From: Candidatus Peregrinibacteria bacterium
GTDB lineage: Bacteria; Patescibacteriota; Gracilibacteria; UM-FILTER-43-11
Assembly: GCA_030618315.1 (NCBI GenBank)
Contig: JAUXDO010000001.1
Coordinates: 1 to 43,841, forward strand
Reading direction: 5' to 3'
Length of the DNA stretch: 43,841 nucleotides
Numbering within the stretch: position 1 is the stretch's first letter; every line of letters starts with the position of its first letter. The translations under genes and the position numbers were made by a program. Positions 23,681 through 42,133 of this stretch are shown one piece after another. A model generated the notes under the pieces. That model saw only the letters and a program-made list of their open reading frames with translations. It was not told where the DNA came from and did no database searches.

Positions 23681-23709
23681 TTGACTTAAAAACGAATCTT
23701 TGCGAAAAT
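23681..23709 (+). promoter_or_regulatory. Putative hrcA promoter
   Basis: TTGACT (23681-86), a 17-nt spacer, then GAAAAT (23704-09). Confidence 0.35.
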
Positions 23710-23712
23710 CAA

Positions 23713-23739
23713 TTAGCACTCACCCACTTAATCTGCTAA
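23713..23739 (+). promoter_or_regulatory. CIRCE-like operator with a degenerate right half
   Basis: TTAGCACTC-acccactta-ATCTGCTAA compared with the consensus TTAGCACTC-N9-GAGTGCTAA. The left half is perfect and the right half matches 6 of 9. It abuts the hrcA ATG. Confidence 0.45.
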
Positions 23740-24446
23740 TGGATTTACGAAAGCAACAAATACTGGAGGCGATAATCGATTCTTTTATAAAGAATGCATT
23801 GCCTGTTGGCTCAAAATATATTCGTGAGTCGTATGATTTCGGTGTATCCCCTGCTACGATAAGGAATGAGATGGCTGCGCTGGAAGCTGAGGGATATATT
23901 GCTCAGCCACATACATCTGCCGGGCGCGTCCCGACTAACAGAGCTTATCGAATGCTTGTTGACCAGATGCAGATTCAGAATCAATTAATGAATCGTGTTA
24001 AACGTGATATGGAAACGGTTCGTAAACAATATTATTTAAAAAAAACTAAAGAAAAGCTATTTGATATTGTCGCAATACTCGCAGGAGTTACAAATAACAT
24101 CAGTTTTGCTACCTTGCCGGATAAAGACAGGGTATTTTATATCGGAATAAGCAATCTGCTAAAAAAACCTGAGTTTATTATGGAGCCGGAAAAGGCTTCT
24201 CAGGTAATTGAGATTCTTGAAAATGACTTATATGGCATTTTATCCGATTTGGAGTTAACGGATGAAGGTACTATTTATATCGGTGAAGAAAATATACTTC
24301 CTGAGTTCCAAAGCTGTAGTCTGCTTGCAATCCCCTATCAGTTAAACGGATTCAGAGGCATTATCGGGGTTCTTGGCTCTACGAGAATGGATTATCCGTA
24401 TAATCTTGCTGCGATTAGGACTGCTATTCAACTATTATCGGATTGA
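23739..24446 (+). CDS. hrcA: Heat-inducible transcription repressor HrcA (short form)
   Basis: MDLRKQQILEAIIDSFIKNALPVGSK...ATIRNEMAALEAEGYI..PHTSAGRVPT... and a C-terminal GVLGSTRMDYPYN. I prefer the ATG at 23739 over the track's TTG at 23700. Confidence 0.85.
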   Translation: MDLRKQQILEAIIDSFIKNALPVGSKYIRESYDFGVSPATIRNEMAALEAEGYIAQPHTSAGRVPTNRAYRMLVDQMQIQNQLMNRVKRDMETVRKQYYLKKTKEKLFDIVAILAGVTNNISFATLPDKDRVFYIGISNLLKKPEFIMEPEKASQVIEILENDLYGILSDLELTDEGTIYIGEENILPEFQSCSLLAIPYQLNGFRGIIGVLGSTRMDYPYNLAAIRTAIQLLSD

Positions 24447-24448
24447 GG

Positions 24449-24568
24449 AACGGATAGGTAAACGGATAGGTAAACGGATAGGTAAACGAATTGAAGAACG
24501 TATAGGAAAACGGATAGAAAAACAATTCGTCCAACAATACGTCCATCAATTAGTCCAACAATACGAAT
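24449..24568. repeat. Ten tandem 12-nt units filling the hrcA-ruvC gap
   Basis: aacggataggta occurs 3 times perfectly (24449-24484). Then come aacgaattgaag, aacgtataggaa and aacggatagaaa. The unit type then switches to aacaattcgtcc, aacaatacgtcc, atcaattagtcc and aacaatacgaat. The array ends 1 nt before the ruvC ATG. Confidence 0.8.
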
Positions 24569-24569
24569 T

Positions 24570-25076
24570 ATGAATTATTATTTAGGAATAGATCCAGGGC
24601 TCTCCGAAGTCGGTTTCGGCATTATTAAGTCTGATGGTAATGAGACTGAATTTGTTGACTGTGGGATTATTAAAACTACTCCTAAAAATACTTTTGCCGA
24701 GAGATTATCGATTATTAAAAAGGATATGGAGGAAATTCTTGCTATGCATAAATACGAAGCTGTTGGAATTGAGGAATTGTTTTTCGCAAAAAATGTTACC
24801 AATGCTATCAAGGTTGCTCATGCACGAGGAATAATCGTGCAGACGGTTCACGATTTACGATTTCCGATTTACGAGTTTACTCCATTGCAGGTCAAAAATA
24901 ATATCTGCGGTTATGGCGGAGCGGATAAATTGATGGTGCAGGAGATGGTTAAACGGCTCCTTAATCTAAAAGTCCTGCCAAAGCCTCATGATGCGGCGGA
25001 TGCGCTTGCGATTGCGATGATAGCTGCCCAAACTCAAAACTCAAAACTCAAAACTCTAAACCCAAAATATACCTAA
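24570..25076 (+). CDS. ruvC: Holliday junction resolvase RuvC
   Basis: LGIDPG at the N-terminus, EELFF, and the HDAADALAIA catalytic C-terminal motif. The last roughly 14 aa are encoded by a repeat arm. Confidence 0.9.
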   Translation: MNYYLGIDPGLSEVGFGIIKSDGNETEFVDCGIIKTTPKNTFAERLSIIKKDMEEILAMHKYEAVGIEELFFAKNVTNAIKVAHARGIIVQTVHDLRFPIYEFTPLQVKNNICGYGGADKLMVQEMVKRLLNLKVLPKPHDAADALAIAMIAAQTQNSKLKTLNPKYT

Positions 25077-39635: not shown

Positions 39636-42041
39636 TCAATTTGTGTTTTCAATAATCTTCTCCAAAAACTCCGTTGGATACAGCTGAGGTTTTTCTTCGA
39701 GTGCCTGATGATAAATTACAGTGGATGGCGTTAAACCAGGAGTAGTATTTGCTTCGATAATGATTAGCTCACCTGTTTTTATGTGCATAAAAGCATCTAT
39801 TCGGCAGTAACCCGAAAACCCCATGGCTTTTGCAACTTTTTCCACTCTCTCCATCGCCTTTTTAACAGCGGATGGCTTTACATAAGGGGTTGGAGGTGGA
39901 GTAATATTCACGCCAGTCCCCCCTTGAAACTTTTCTTCCAGACTTAGGATATTGCCAACTGCTACGGTTATACTTGGTGACATCGCTTTCATCTTACCTT
40001 TTCGTTCCAAAAGACCCATTGTTATTTCAATCCAATTATTCCTTGTTTGCCATTTGAGTTTATTTTTGATTACGCGGACTTTGTCGGTTGTAATAAATTG
40101 CTCAAACATTATGTTCTTCATTTTCTGATGAGGCATATCGATAATCCCATGTTGCTTTGTTAATTTTCCTTCAGGAATCATAGGAGACGCTTTTAGAGCG
40201 TATTTTAAATAAACCTCCAGATCTTTTGGTGTGTAAAGCCTTGCAATGCCCGAACTGCACCCATCATCAACGGGTTTTACGATTATTGTTCGGCTTTCAA
40301 GTTCTTGTGCCAATCCTCTCCAATACCTTTTGTAATCGACTGGTTTAAACTTTTTAAACTGAATCATTTTTTCCACTCTTTTGAACGCTGAGCTAATGCC
40401 TTCTTTTTTTAGATGCTTAATAGCTTCACCCGTTTTATATTTATCTATACCAAGTTTTGATGCTACTCCGCCAGAACCATTAAATGGAACTTTTGCTTTT
40501 TCCAGCATTTTCTGCAGAGTGCCGTCTTCCCCAATCCCGCCATGTAAACCAATAAATACATATTTAGATTTTTTGATGAAGTCTTTGAGTGTCATCTTTT
40601 CCGGGAAGAACCACGGTTCTGAAATATCACCTTCATCCGGACTTAATTTTTCAATTACGCGTTCTATTAAAGCTCGCAACCTATCTTCATCATCTTTTGC
40701 ATTAACACAATTTTTCATAATCTCTTCTACAGTATGATTCAATGTAAGAGAATACGGCAGATGCCAAACATTATGATTCATATCGAGCAGGTATGGTTCC
40801 GGTTTGTATTTATCTGAACGCTTGAGCTTGAGCCATACGTTTGTACCGGACATGACGGAAACTTGGCGCTCGGCTGTCTTGCCTCCGAAGAGGACGTTGA
40901 TTTGTGATTTGTGATTTTTGATTTGTGATTTCAAATTCTCAATTCTCAAATCACAATTCTCAAATTTTATACCGTATCGTCGACAGGCACTCTTCACAAT
41001 ATAAAGCAAAACGTCCCTATGGCTCATTCCTATTCTGGATGACTGCATAAAAAGAAAACTGTTTTGCTCCATTCCGCTTATCGGATTGAAGTCTGAAAAC
41101 CATAAATTTCCATCCGGCATCAACCACCCATCGAACCTTGCAAAGTTTCTCATTCCGAGAAGTTTAAATAATTGCTCTGACTGGATTTGAATCCTTCTGA
41201 TTACATCTTCAGAAAAACGCGGCGGACAGTGATATGTTACCTGTCTTGATGCTAAATATTTTTTTCTATAATCGAATATCTGATGGTCACTATAATCTAG
41301 CTCCATTTCTGTAGGAAGGACTGCTACCGGCATACCAAAGCGATTCTCTAATATGATTACAGTAAACTCAACCCCATTACAAAAAGGTTCAACAACTAAC
41401 CTTGTATCTACTCTTTTTGAGAAAAGATCATGAGCAACTTTTAGGGCCTCATCTACTGTTGAAACTGAACTTACTCCAATGCTTGAACCTCCTGTTGCAG
41501 GTTTCACTACTGCACGTTTGATTTTATGGTCCTTAAAAAACTTATTGATTATCTGTTTGTGATTTTTTAAATGACTTTTTAATAAAACAGATGGAAGAGT
41601 ATAGAATCCATTATCTCTTATAAACTCATTCGCATTAAATTTATCAAATGCCCGTTTACATGCGTCTTCCGGTGAGCCAATACATGGAATTTTGTATCTT
41701 TTAAGAATGCGCTGGATTTCCCCGTCCTCACCAAATGGGCCGTGCATTACAGGAAATGCAAGGTCGACTGTTTTGAGATATTTACCTAAGGCAGATTTGG
41801 ATAATGGCTTTCCTGATGAGTGTAATTTAAAATCAAAATCTGATGGAGTATTTGAATAAAGCTGGCTTCTGGAAATCAGATAGGCATTTTTTTTATGGTC
41901 GAAATAGATTGGAAGTATTTCTATCTCCTCTGAATGTAAGTGGTCGCAAACGGAGCGTGCGGAGTTGAGGGAGATACCTCTCTCCAATGATGGACCGCCA
42001 CACAACAAAGCAATTTTCAATTTACAATTTACAATTTTCAT
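39636..42041 (-). CDS. ddl: Tandem-fused D-alanine--D-alanine ligase-family protein (two complete ATP-grasp Ddl-like modules)
   Basis: Module 1: KIALLCGGPSLERGISLNSA..., VKPATGGSSIGV, ARFDGWL..DGNLWFSDFNPISGM. Module 2: INVLFGGKTAERQVSVMSG..., VKPVDDGCSSGI, CRIDAFM...ELIIIEANTTPGLTPSTV. They are joined by ENCDLRIENLKSQIKNHKSQ. Confidence 0.85.
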   Translation of the reverse strand: MKIVNCKLKIALLCGGPSLERGISLNSARSVCDHLHSEEIEILPIYFDHKKNAYLISRSQLYSNTPSDFDFKLHSSGKPLSKSALGKYLKTVDLAFPVMHGPFGEDGEIQRILKRYKIPCIGSPEDACKRAFDKFNANEFIRDNGFYTLPSVLLKSHLKNHKQIINKFFKDHKIKRAVVKPATGGSSIGVSSVSTVDEALKVAHDLFSKRVDTRLVVEPFCNGVEFTVIILENRFGMPVAVLPTEMELDYSDHQIFDYRKKYLASRQVTYHCPPRFSEDVIRRIQIQSEQLFKLLGMRNFARFDGWLMPDGNLWFSDFNPISGMEQNSFLFMQSSRIGMSHRDVLLYIVKSACRRYGIKFENCDLRIENLKSQIKNHKSQINVLFGGKTAERQVSVMSGTNVWLKLKRSDKYKPEPYLLDMNHNVWHLPYSLTLNHTVEEIMKNCVNAKDDEDRLRALIERVIEKLSPDEGDISEPWFFPEKMTLKDFIKKSKYVFIGLHGGIGEDGTLQKMLEKAKVPFNGSGGVASKLGIDKYKTGEAIKHLKKEGISSAFKRVEKMIQFKKFKPVDYKRYWRGLAQELESRTIIVKPVDDGCSSGIARLYTPKDLEVYLKYALKASPMIPEGKLTKQHGIIDMPHQKMKNIMFEQFITTDKVRVIKNKLKWQTRNNWIEITMGLLERKGKMKAMSPSITVAVGNILSLEEKFQGGTGVNITPPPTPYVKPSAVKKAMERVEKVAKAMGFSGYCRIDAFMHIKTGELIIIEANTTPGLTPSTVIYHQALEEKPQLYPTEFLEKIIENTN
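40897..40966. repeat. Heptamer arrays inside the Ddl-Ddl linker coding sequence
   Basis: gatttgt gatttgt gattttt gatttgt gatttca, followed by aattctc aattctc aaatcac aattctc aaatttt. Only ttgtgattt/aaatcacaa is truly complementary. Confidence 0.7.
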
Positions 42042-42133
42042 TTAACAAATGTAATTATTCGCAAGGATTGTACATTAAATTTTTGGCTTAAGCAAAGTGT
42101 TTTAAAATTTAAAATTGTAAATTGTAAATTTGT
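42011..42133. repeat. Heptad-periodic palindrome straddling the ddl start codon
   Basis: 42019-42038 aatttacaatttacaatttt is the exact reverse complement of 42111-42130 aaaattgtaaattgtaaatt (20 bp). The left arm encodes Ddl residues 2-8 (KIVNCKL). Confidence 0.8.

What the first reader, a model, noticed from the sequence alone, without database searches (positions are those of the whole stretch)
39636..42041. Two complete Ddl-like ATP-grasp modules fused into one 801-aa ORF through a repeat-encoded linker
Residues 9 to about 360 and about 385 to 801 each contain a full D-Ala-D-Ala-ligase-like N-domain and ATP-grasp motif set. The junction (ENCDLRIENLKSQIKNHKSQ) is encoded by two heptamer arrays (40897-40966) of the type that elsewhere fills intergenic gaps. 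This suggests two adjacent ddl-family genes were fused by read-through of an intergenic repeat. At the 5' end, residues 2-8 (KIVNCKL) are encoded by one arm of a 20-bp perfect inverted repeat (42019-42038 / 42111-42130). A TTG at 42018-42020 would give the canonical start MKIALLCGG. A duplicated or fused Ddl could imply two substrate specificities (for example D-Ala-D-Ala plus D-Ala-D-X). This has not been checked.
Basis: partly seen in the sequence, partly recalled or inferred. Interest (0 to 1): 0.7.

Follow-up and report, generated by a model that had tools for sequence, protein, structure and literature searches.

The report
Plant-type tandem D-Ala-D-Ala ligase, repeat-encoded linker
This is one genuine, ancient gene for a double D-alanine-D-alanine ligase, the same two-module cell-wall enzyme that plants have; it is conserved in hundreds of Peregrinibacteria-like bacteria, and only its floppy linker has been taken over by this genome's 7-base repeats.

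Summary
ORF 39636-42041 (-) encodes 801 aa with two complete Ddl modules. They are joined by a linker encoded by two heptamer arrays. One arm of a 20-bp perfect inverted repeat covers codons 2-8.

The proposed origin, a recent fusion by read-through of an intergenic repeat, is not supported. The fusion is old:
- 573 species-representative genomes carry family-specific motifs of both modules.
- In 81 of 81 fetched loci (80 distinct), both modules lie in one stop-free frame.
- A Coffea (plant) DDL aligns end to end at about 42% identity, module 1 to module 1 and module 2 to module 2.
- Plant DDL is already described as a fusion of two DDLs (PMC9954125).

The usual linker is about 20 aa. Only this genome and its closest named relative have heptamer DNA there, and they differ by 6 units (42 nt), which keeps the frame.

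Both modules keep every ATP, Mg and catalytic residue. Module 1 has the canonical E-S-Y triad. Module 2 has an invariant E-C-F triad plus S281T, in bacteria and the plant alike. A second specificity therefore remains possible but untested.

Some relatives are fused to MurF, or to MurF plus alanine racemase, which ties the family to peptidoglycan synthesis.

Verdict: a new bacterial member of a known kind, of moderate interest.

The parts
39636..42041 (-). Complete ORF for the tandem Ddl-Ddl protein (801 aa plus TGA stop)
   Evidence: More than 120 full-length homologues at 60-88% identity and 99% coverage.
40977..42017 (-). Module 1 (residues 9-355): canonical Ddl. Key residues are E20, S186, K261, Y262, R302, D304, D317, N319 and S328.
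   Evidence: Pfam. TIGR01205 gives 200.1 bits for this module alone. Residue map against E. coli DdlB.
40899..40976 (-). Inter-module linker (residues 356-381). It is hypervariable in the family and predicted to be disordered.
   Evidence: Mean pairwise identity in A1 is 0.17 in the linker, against 0.73 and 0.63 in the modules. pLDDT is below 50 at residues 363-375. Alignment; linker survey.
40934..40963 (-). Heptamer array (GAGAATT)n on the coding strand, including one GTGATTT unit. It encodes the ENCDLRIEN part of the linker.
   Evidence: TRF; codon view.
40898..40931 (-). Heptamer array (AAATCAC)n on the coding strand, about 5 units. It encodes LKSQIKNHKSQI. The relative L001 has about 11 units.
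   Evidence: The difference from L001 is 42 nt, which is 6 units or 14 codons.
39639..40898 (-). Module 2 (residues 382-801): divergent Ddl with insertions. All ATP and Mg residues are kept, but the pocket is E391 / C595 / F705 / T774.
   Evidence: Pfam. TIGR01205 gives only 130 bits. Residue map. Codons checked.
40257..40259 (-). Codon TGC for Cys595, at the position of DdlB Ser150
   Evidence: Invariant in 38 of 38 sequences in A1; Cys in about 240 of the 245 module-2 sequences scored.
39927..39929 (-). Codon TTT for Phe705, at the position of DdlB Tyr216 in the omega loop
42011..42048 (-). 5' heptamer array overlapping the ATG and codons 2-8 (KIVNCKL). It is one arm of the inverted repeat.
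42104..42130 (-). Upstream arm of the inverted repeat, 65 nt from the other arm
   Evidence: The RNA fold gives -27.4 kcal/mol with a z-score of only -1.9.
42018..42020 (-). Alternative TTG start (codon 8), not favoured

Best explanation
The ORF is one real gene for a plant-type tandem D-alanine-D-alanine ligase.

**Shown**
- The fusion of two Ddl paralogues is ancient. It is conserved in a large, mostly Peregrinibacteria/Patescibacteria family and is homologous, module for module, to the double DDL of plants.
- Both modules are under strong purifying selection and keep the full ATP-grasp catalytic set.
- The linker is a short, variable segment with low model confidence. In this sublineage the genome's own heptamer repeats have replaced and lengthened it. 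Between the two genomes compared, the copy number differs by a multiple of three units, so the frame is kept.

**Inferred**
- The enzyme supplies D-Ala-D-Ala to MurF for peptidoglycan synthesis.
- The two modules pack as an intramolecular counterpart of the usual Ddl homodimer.
- Module 1 is the canonical D-Ala-D-Ala site.
- Module 2 is also catalytic, but its second-substrate pocket is altered (E-C-F triad, Thr for Ser281) and may be more permissive.
For: **Conservation of the fusion**
- More than 120 full-length homologues.
- 573 species-representative genomes carry both motifs, and the best 80 all match residues about 7-800.
- Both modules lie in one stop-free segment in 81 of 81 loci.
- Short hits are fragments. 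They sit on contigs of 1.3-4.5 kb or are marked 'partial', and their 90% clusters contain members of about 800 aa.

**Link to plants**
- Coffea XP_027176337.1 (P0146) gives a single HSP at about 42% identity over its residues about 80-950.
- The module-1 HMM scores 389 bits on its first module and the module-2 HMM scores 448 bits on its second. Cross scores are 34-46 bits.
- PMC9954125 states that At-DDL and Pp-DDL are fusions of two DDLs found throughout the plant lineage.

**Catalytic residues**
- Module 1 reads EHKKSSEEKYRDDNSF and module 2 reads EHKKCSEEKFRDENTV at the DdlB positions. These exact signatures occur in 186 of 226 and 209 of 245 sequences, the plant included.

**Selection**
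- Against L001, pN is 0.10-0.12 while pS is about 0.77, in both modules.

**Structure**
- The AF2 model has pLDDT 88.7 and pTM 0.87. Only residues 1-4 and 363-375 fall below 50.
- Foldseek matches Ddl, VanA and VanG chains with target-normalised TM-scores of 0.74-0.86.

**Pathway**
- One relative is fused to MurF (TIGR01143, 323 bits against a cut-off of 288.6). Another is fused to MurF plus Alr (TIGR00492, 298 bits against 168).
- One relative (P0170, in the plant-like clade of the NJ tree) lies next to a gene whose product has Mur ligase and alanine racemase domains.
- A PBP2-type transpeptidase lies about 5 kb away in the window and in L001.

**Linker**
- The modal linker is about 20 aa with no repeat. 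Period-7 DNA is seen only in the window and L001 (L013 is the same contig).
- The difference from L001 is 42 nt and in frame.
Against: - No enzyme activity has been measured for any bacterial member or for either module.
- Neither module alone reaches the curated Ddl cut-off of NCBIfam (200.1 and 130.0 bits against 245.65).
- The pseudo-dimer packing rests only on a high pTM; I could not inspect the coordinates.
- I could not check whether these genomes carry a second, ordinary ddl.
- The taxon labels of the MAGs are heterogeneous. A few are labelled Bdellovibrionales, Gammaproteobacteria or Moanabacter, so the host range is only roughly known.
Confidence: 0.8

Rival explanations
1. One reading: two adjacent ddl genes were recently fused in this genome, or by assembly error, through read-through of an intergenic heptamer repeat.
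For: - The linker DNA is made of heptamer arrays that are otherwise mostly intergenic.
- The first array contains GTGATTT, the reverse complement of the AAATCAC unit, which recalls the inverted array pairs seen between genes.
Against: - The fusion is uninterrupted in 81 of 81 related loci and in a plant.
- Relatives at 84-88% identity (P0002, P0004) have non-repeat linkers.
- The modal linker is about 20 aa of ordinary sequence.
- The modules are only 21% identical.
- No stand-alone module 2 was found among 287 clusters at E below 1e-30.
Confidence: 0.02
2. Bifunctional enzyme. Module 1 makes D-Ala-D-Ala. Module 2, with Cys, Phe and Thr at the positions of DdlB S150, Y216 and S281, ligates D-Ala to a different partner such as D-lactate, D-Ser or another D-amino acid.
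For: - The three pocket substitutions are invariant from these bacteria to the Coffea protein, while all ATP, Mg and catalytic residues are kept.
- From my own knowledge, not retrieved here: DdlB Y216F and S150A mutants gain D-Ala-D-lactate synthesis (Park, Lin and Walsh 1996), and the Leuconostoc D-Ala-D-Lac ligase has Phe at this position. The corresponding PDB entries 1iow and 1ehi appear.
Against: - Module 2 scores far below the D-Ala-D-Lac and D-Ala-D-Ser models (54 bits against 550, 64 bits against 520).
- In moss, the precursors found by mass spectrometry match those of typical Gram-negative bacteria (PMC9434261).
- From my own knowledge: the Y216F mutant of DdlB still makes D-Ala-D-Ala.
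Confidence: 0.25
3. One module is a catalytically silent scaffold or regulatory partner: a pseudo-enzyme that only stabilises the dimer.
For: - Module 2 is divergent (130 bits on TIGR01205) and has large insertions in its N-terminal and central domains.
- Its substrate triad is broken.
Against: - Every ATP, Mg and catalytic position is invariant in both modules across more than 200 sequences. This is not expected of a pseudo-enzyme.
- pN is equally low in both modules.
[quoted passage not shown] This is indirect evidence.
Confidence: 0.1
4. The in-ORF heptamer tract is a slipped-strand contingency switch. A gain or loss of 1 or 2 units truncates the protein after module 1, so the cell toggles between the tandem enzyme and a module-1-only enzyme.
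For: - Simulated changes of 1 or 2 units give stops 30-50 codons downstream and leave module 1 intact. Removing 3 units keeps the frame.
- The tract has about 5 units here and about 11 in L001.
- The linker DNA is much more conserved than synonymous sites nearby (pS 0.32 against 0.77).
Against: - Only in-frame states are observed, in both genomes that carry the tract.
- The tract is short.
- Most family members have no repeat at all.
- No population data are available.
Confidence: 0.07

Closest known systems
Plant 'fused' D-Ala-D-Ala ligase (Arabidopsis At-DDL, Physcomitrium Pp-DDL; here Coffea XP_027176337.1)
   Same: - Two Ddl modules in one chain, in the same order.
- About 42% identity end to end in one HSP.
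- Module-specific HMMs match module to module.
- Identical active-site signatures in both modules, including C, F and T in module 2.
   Different: - The plant protein has an N-terminal extension of about 75 aa, presumably a transit peptide, and longer internal insertions (956 aa against 801 aa).
- The bacterial protein has no such extension.
- The heptamer-encoded linker is specific to this bacterial sublineage.
Canonical single-module Ddl (E. coli DdlB, PDB 2dln; DdlA-type enzymes)
   Same: - Same fold (target-normalised TM-score 0.74-0.86).
- All ATP, Mg and catalytic residues are present in both modules.
- Module 1 keeps the E15-S150-Y216 triad.
   Different: - From my own knowledge, canonical Ddl is a homodimer of about 300-370 aa; here two diverged paralogues (21% identity) are joined covalently.
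- Module 1 has E270D and L282F.
- Module 2 has S150C, Y216F, S281T, L282V and insertions.
- Each module alone falls below the TIGR01205 cut-off.
D-Ala-D-lactate ligases (Leuconostoc LmDdl2, PDB 1ehi; VanA)
   Same: From my own knowledge, LmDdl2 has Phe at the Y216 position, as module 2 does. The fold is the same.
   Different: - Far below the family model cut-offs.
- No vanH or vanX context was seen within the window.
- Cys at position 150 is not a feature of those enzymes, as far as I know.
Other Ddl fusions: chlamydial MurC-Ddl (NF011171); the tandem-DDL-MurF and tandem-DDL-MurF-Alr proteins found here (P0165, P0204)
   Same: A Ddl module fused to another enzyme of the D-Ala branch of peptidoglycan synthesis.
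   Different: The window protein has no Mur ligase or racemase domain. It scores 147.8 bits on NF011171 against a cut-off of 1015.

Membership tests
D-alanine-D-alanine ligase family (Pfam PF01820 + PF07478; TIGR01205) | N-terminal Ddl domain followed by the ATP-grasp C-terminal domain | tested here: met
   Both domains are found in each half above the gathering scores.
D-alanine-D-alanine ligase family (Pfam PF01820 + PF07478; TIGR01205) | Score at or above the curated NCBIfam cut-off (TIGR01205, 245.65 bits) | tested here: inconclusive
   The whole protein scores 324.7 bits and passes. Module 1 alone scores 200.1 and module 2 alone 130.0, and both fail.
D-alanine-D-alanine ligase family (Pfam PF01820 + PF07478; TIGR01205) | ATP, Mg and catalytic residues (DdlB K97, K144, E180, E187, K215, R255, D257, E270, N272) | tested here: met
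   All are present and invariant in both modules. Module 1 has Asp at the E270 position.
D-alanine-D-alanine ligase family (Pfam PF01820 + PF07478; TIGR01205) | Substrate-positioning triad E15-S150-Y216 | tested here: inconclusive
   Module 1 has E20-S186-Y262, so the feature is met. Module 2 has E391-C595-F705, so it is not met.
D-alanine-D-alanine ligase family (Pfam PF01820 + PF07478; TIGR01205) | Ddl three-domain fold | tested here: met
   AF2 pLDDT 88.7. Foldseek top hits are Ddl, VanA and VanG chains, with E-values down to 7e-27 and target-normalised TM-scores of 0.74-0.86.
D-alanine-D-alanine ligase family (Pfam PF01820 + PF07478; TIGR01205) | ATP-dependent formation of D-Ala-D-Ala | not testable with these tools
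   Needs an enzyme assay or a complementation experiment.
Plant-type tandem (fused) DDL | Two Ddl modules in one polypeptide | tested here: met
Plant-type tandem (fused) DDL | Colinear full-length homology to a plant DDL, with module-to-module correspondence | tested here: met
   The Coffea protein gives one HSP at about 42% identity. HMM scores are 389 and 448 bits on the matching modules, against 34-46 bits on the other module.
Plant-type tandem (fused) DDL | Shared module-specific active-site signatures | tested here: met
   The 16-position signatures of the window protein and Coffea P0146 are identical in both modules.
Plant-type tandem (fused) DDL | N-terminal plastid-targeting extension | tested here: not met
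   The window protein starts 8 residues before the first strand. In Coffea, module 1 starts at about residue 76. This is expected for a bacterial homologue.
D-Ala-D-Lac / D-Ala-D-Ser ligases (Van-type, NF000206, NF000207 and others) | Score at or above the family cut-offs | tested here: not met
   Best scores are 95-141 bits for module 1 and 54-77 bits for module 2, against cut-offs of 495-775.
Bifunctional MurC-Ddl (NF011171) | Mur ligase domain plus a Ddl module; cut-off 1015 bits | tested here: not met
   147.8 bits and no Mur ligase domain.

The most novel reading that the evidence does not exclude
The Cys/Phe/Thr pocket of module 2 is invariant from Peregrinibacteria-type bacteria to a flowering plant, while all catalytic residues are kept. 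This could mark a second, distinct ligase chemistry, such as D-Ala-D-X or a depsipeptide. The 'DDL' of plants and of these bacteria would then be a two-activity enzyme. That would bear on why Arabidopsis lines that still transcribe the second-module half of DDL show no chloroplast phenotype.
Probability: 0.25. Interest if true: 0.7.

Novelty: new member of a known kind. Interest (0 to 1): 0.4.

Why it matters
1. **Origin.** The work replaces an attractive but wrong origin story. The fusion is ancient and the repeat is a late passenger.
2. **Link to plants.** The plant double DDL, whose function in angiosperms is still debated (PMC9954125), now has a large bacterial family with identical module-specific active sites. 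The small bacterial protein could serve as a tractable model for asking which module makes D-Ala-D-Ala.
3. **Annotation.** NCBI records call these proteins 'hypothetical'. Each module alone falls below the Ddl model cut-off, so peptidoglycan pathway reconstructions for these bacteria may wrongly miss ddl.
4. **Repeat biology.** The linker is a clean example of intergenic-type heptamer arrays tolerated inside a gene. The one copy-number difference seen is a multiple of three units.

Tried and rejected
- **Literature on the bacterial family.** Searches combining Peregrinibacteria with 'D-alanine ligase', or with 'peptidoglycan' and 'ddl', found nothing. The Peribacteria genome paper says only that all peptidoglycan genes are present.
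- **Papers not held.** Sato and Takano 2017 and Hirano et al. 2016 are not in the library. Their statements on DDL origin and activity could not be read.
- **Exact look-up of the window protein.** The look-up of encoding contigs found no record for it.
- **Taxon names.** The listing of cluster members gave no organism names for the relatives closest to the plant protein or for the 880-920-aa subfamily. Gene neighbours show only that P0170 is bacterial and lies in a gene context of the D-Ala branch of peptidoglycan synthesis.
- **Stand-alone module 2.** Hits of about 300-480 aa turned out to be fragments. One contig has a 302-aa and a 360-aa piece, probably from a frameshift.
- **Promoter and the 5' hairpin.** Promoter-like sites are no more frequent than in shuffles (11 against 9.3). 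The hairpin z-score is only -1.9. No conclusion on regulation.
- **Pseudo-dimer geometry.** Model coordinates cannot be read with these tools, so only pTM could be used.
- **Phylogeny.** The neighbour-joining tree puts a plant-like clade as sister to the Peregrinibacteria-type clade. Its bootstrap support is only 42 of 100 and most leaves are unnamed, so I draw no donor inference.
Full report
**1.

The minus-strand ORF 39636..42041 starts with ATG, ends with TGA and encodes 801 aa. Pfam finds Dala_Dala_lig_N and Dala_Dala_lig_C twice. Scanned separately, residues 1-373 score 86 and 94 bits and residues 374-801 score 75 and 53 bits, all above the gathering cut-offs.

TRF finds two adjacent heptamer arrays inside the ORF, at 40898-40931 and 40934-40963. 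On the coding strand they read (GAGAATT)n then (AAATCAC)n and encode ENCDLRIENLKSQIKNHKSQ.

The window holds 33 period-7 arrays. ORFs of 150 aa or more cover 74% of the window, yet 24 arrays overlap none of them and 6 only touch an ORF edge. Only 3 are internal to a long ORF, and 2 of those are this linker pair.

The 5' inverted repeat is real, with a 20-bp perfect core at 42019-42038 / 42111-42130. Codon 8 is TTG at 42018-42020.

**2. The fusion is ancient, not a local accident**

- A protein search returned more than 120 homologues of 780-830 aa covering 99% of the query at 60-88% identity. Where named, most are called Candidatus Peregrinibacteria or Patescibacteria.
- A scan of one genome per species used one motif from each module (SGMEQNSF and EEKFQGGT). 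It found 573 genomes. The best 80 all match residues about 7-800 at 54-82% identity.
- In all 81 loci held (80 distinct; L001 and L013 are the same contig), both modules lie in one stop-free segment.
- Module 2 alone, searched against 1.84 billion cluster representatives, gave 287 clusters at E below 1e-30. Nearly all are about 800 aa, with the match at about 365-790.
- The few hits of 300-480 aa are fragments. They sit on contigs of 1.3-4.5 kb or are marked 'partial', and their 90% clusters contain members of about 800 aa.
- A more distant subfamily of 880-920 aa has the same two-module plan.

**3. It is the bacterial counterpart of the plant double DDL**

One representative, P0146, is a Coffea nuclear protein, XP_027176337.1.

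- It aligns with the window family in a single HSP at about 42% identity over its residues about 80-950.
- HMMs built from the two modules score 389 bits on its first module and 448 bits on its second. Cross scores are only 34-46 bits. The modules therefore correspond one to one.
[quoted passage not shown] - PMC7432710 lists the plant enzyme as a functionally characterised D-Ala-D-Ala ligase.

The architecture as such is therefore already known. I found no paper that describes the bacterial family.

A neighbour-joining tree places a small plant-like clade as sister to the Peregrinibacteria-type clade. Support is weak and most leaves are unnamed. I do not infer a donor.

**4. The linker is a variable tether that the repeats colonised**

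- In the alignment of 38 homologues, the flanks of the linker are invariant but the linker itself has a mean identity of 0.17, against 0.73 and 0.63 for the modules.
- Across about 70 species the modal linker is about 20 aa of the form FPE...KKKKxVN. No linker contains a stop.
- Period-7 DNA occurs there only in the window and in the closest named relative (GCA_016932505.1, fetched as both L001 and L013).
- That relative has the same (AAATCAC)n array with 42 more bases, which is 6 units or 14 codons, so the frame is kept.
- Relatives that are closer overall (P0002 at 88%, P0004 at 84-85%) have unrelated linkers. The linker is therefore a recurrent site of sequence replacement.
- The AF2 model is confident everywhere (pLDDT 88.7, pTM 0.87) except residues 1-4 and 363-375.
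- Between the window and L001, synonymous sites are saturated in both modules (pS about 0.77). In the linker pS is only 0.32. A rough binomial estimate gives p of about 1e-4. This fits homogenisation of the array by slippage, or some constraint at the DNA level.
- Simulated gain or loss of 1 or 2 units truncates the protein 30-50 codons later and leaves module 1 intact. Removing 3 units keeps the frame.

**5. Both modules look catalytic, but their pockets differ**

I checked my recalled E. coli DdlB sequence against PDB 2dln and 1iov; it matches over residues 1-306 at 666 bits. I then mapped the key positions.

| DdlB position | Module 1 | Module 2 |
|---|---|---|
| E15 | E20 | E391 |
| H63 | H100 | H500 |
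| K97 | K134 | K534 |
| K144 | K180 | K589 |
| S150 | S186 | C595 |
| S151 | S187 | S596 |
| E180 | E218 | E647 |
| E187 | E225 | E672 |
| K215 | K261 | K704 |
| Y216 | Y262 | F705 |
| R255 | R302 | R747 |
| D257 | D304 | D749 |
| E270 | D317 | E763 |
| N272 | N319 | N765 |
| S281 | S328 | T774 |
| L282 | F329 | V775 |

- Module 1 is canonical except for E270D and L282F.
- Module 2 keeps every ATP, Mg and catalytic residue but has S150C, Y216F, S281T and L282V.
- These two signatures are invariant in the 38-sequence alignment. They recur exactly in 186 of 226 and 209 of 245 diverse tandem proteins, including Coffea. The 880-920-aa subfamily has the same pattern except at the L282 position.
- Non-synonymous divergence is equally low in both modules. 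Neither half is a decaying copy.
- The halves share only 21% identity. This is no more than each shares with ordinary Ddl enzymes.
- From my own knowledge, not retrieved here: Y216F and S150A mutants of DdlB gain D-Ala-D-lactate synthesis, and natural D-Ala-D-Lac ligases of lactic acid bacteria have Phe at this position. A relaxed or different second-substrate specificity for module 2 is therefore plausible. It is untested, and module 2 falls far below the Van-type models.

**6. Function and context**

- Some family members carry extra domains. P0165 has a MurF domain (TIGR01143, 323 bits against a cut-off of 288.6). P0204 has MurF plus alanine racemase (TIGR00492, 298 bits against 168). P0225 has a PASTA domain and P0178 a GNAT domain.
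- A relative from the plant-like clade (P0170) lies next to a gene whose product has Mur ligase and alanine racemase domains, and near a gene with MR_MLE domains.
- In the window and in L001 the gene shares a neighbourhood with a PBP2-type transpeptidase.

These fusions and neighbours place the enzyme in the D-Ala branch of peptidoglycan synthesis.

The idea that the two modules pack like the usual Ddl homodimer is an inference. It rests on the high pTM and on general knowledge that Ddl enzymes are dimers. I could not inspect the coordinates.

**7. Start codon and the 5' repeat**

The closest relatives begin M-x(2-4)-KLKIALLCGG, with Leu where the window has TTG. The ATG at 42041 is therefore the more likely start. 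The array (AAATTGT)n supplies codons 2-6.

The inverted repeat could form a hairpin that covers the start region. Its z-score is only -1.9, and the promoter position is unresolved.

**8. Verdict**

The feature is real and correctly described, but its origin was misread. It is a new bacterial member of the known plant-type tandem DDL, with a linker colonised by repeats. Three points go beyond the ordinary:
- the module-2 pocket is conserved from these bacteria to plants;
- NCBI annotates these proteins as 'hypothetical', and each module alone falls below the Ddl cut-off;
- heptamer arrays inside a gene whose one observed copy-number difference is a multiple of three units.

Noticed in passing
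window 220-250/281-311; 25030-25067/25096-25125; 31411-31439/31555-31583; 36567-36589/36675-36703; 42011-42048/42101-42131: Intergenic heptamer arrays often come as pairs whose units are reverse complements of each other, for example ATTTCAG with TCTGAAA and AAACTCA with TTTGAGT. Such pairs could form long hairpins. There are 33 period-7 arrays in 43.8 kb. At a syntenic spot after the LDcluster4 gene, L001 (19737-19811) also has an inverted pair, but with a different unit.
   Followed up: partly
window 24850-24880 and 25030-25067, within ORF 24570-25076 (+): This is the only other long ORF with heptamer arrays inside it. Either it is a second case of coding arrays, or the ORF is over-extended at its 3' end.
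   Followed up: no
window 28457-28552: A 39-nt unit (TTGAGTACAAACGTAGGGCTACCTTCGGCGTGGGGCTGT) is repeated 2.5 times at 89% identity. It lies between the ribosomal protein L1 gene (28721-29422, -) and the next ORF (28011-28466, -). It is G+C-rich with hairpin potential and could be an RNA element.
   Followed up: no
window 24449-24562: Two adjacent 12-nt arrays (AACGGATAGGTA x5.8 and AACAATTCGTCC x3.5) fill the gap between ORFs 23700-24446 and 24570-25076.
   Followed up: no
Linkers of P0002, P0007 and P0020 (homologues at 88%, 76% and 72% identity): The same linker peptide, APQRSG(S/A)TAKR.HSEA, recurs in three relatives that are not each other's closest relatives. This suggests that another mobile or repeated DNA element inserts at the same linker.
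   Followed up: no
P0165 (1262 aa), P0204 (1638 aa), P0225 (1244 aa), P0178 (987 aa): Family members carry extra domains: tandem DDL plus MurF; tandem DDL plus MurF plus alanine racemase; tandem DDL plus PASTA; and an N-terminal GNAT domain plus tandem DDL.
   Followed up: partly
L058 (CBDDCD010000002.1, a 2.9-Mb contig labelled Candidatus Moanabacter sp., 54% GC); also L012, L014, L039, L064, L071, L048: Full-length tandem DDLs at 55-63% identity sit in records labelled Moanabacter, Bdellovibrionales, Deltaproteobacteria or Gammaproteobacteria. Either the family extends beyond Patescibacteria, or these MAG labels are unreliable.
   Followed up: no
NCBI names listed: NCBI records name these 800-aa proteins 'hypothetical protein', while JGI calls them D-alanine--D-alanine ligase. 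Each module alone scores below the TIGR01205 cut-off.
   Followed up: partly
P0235 (360 aa) and P0322 (302 aa), on one 7530-bp ENA contig: Two short pieces of module 2 lie on the same contig, and their cluster has an 804-aa full-length member. This is probably a frameshifted or pseudogenised copy.
   Followed up: no
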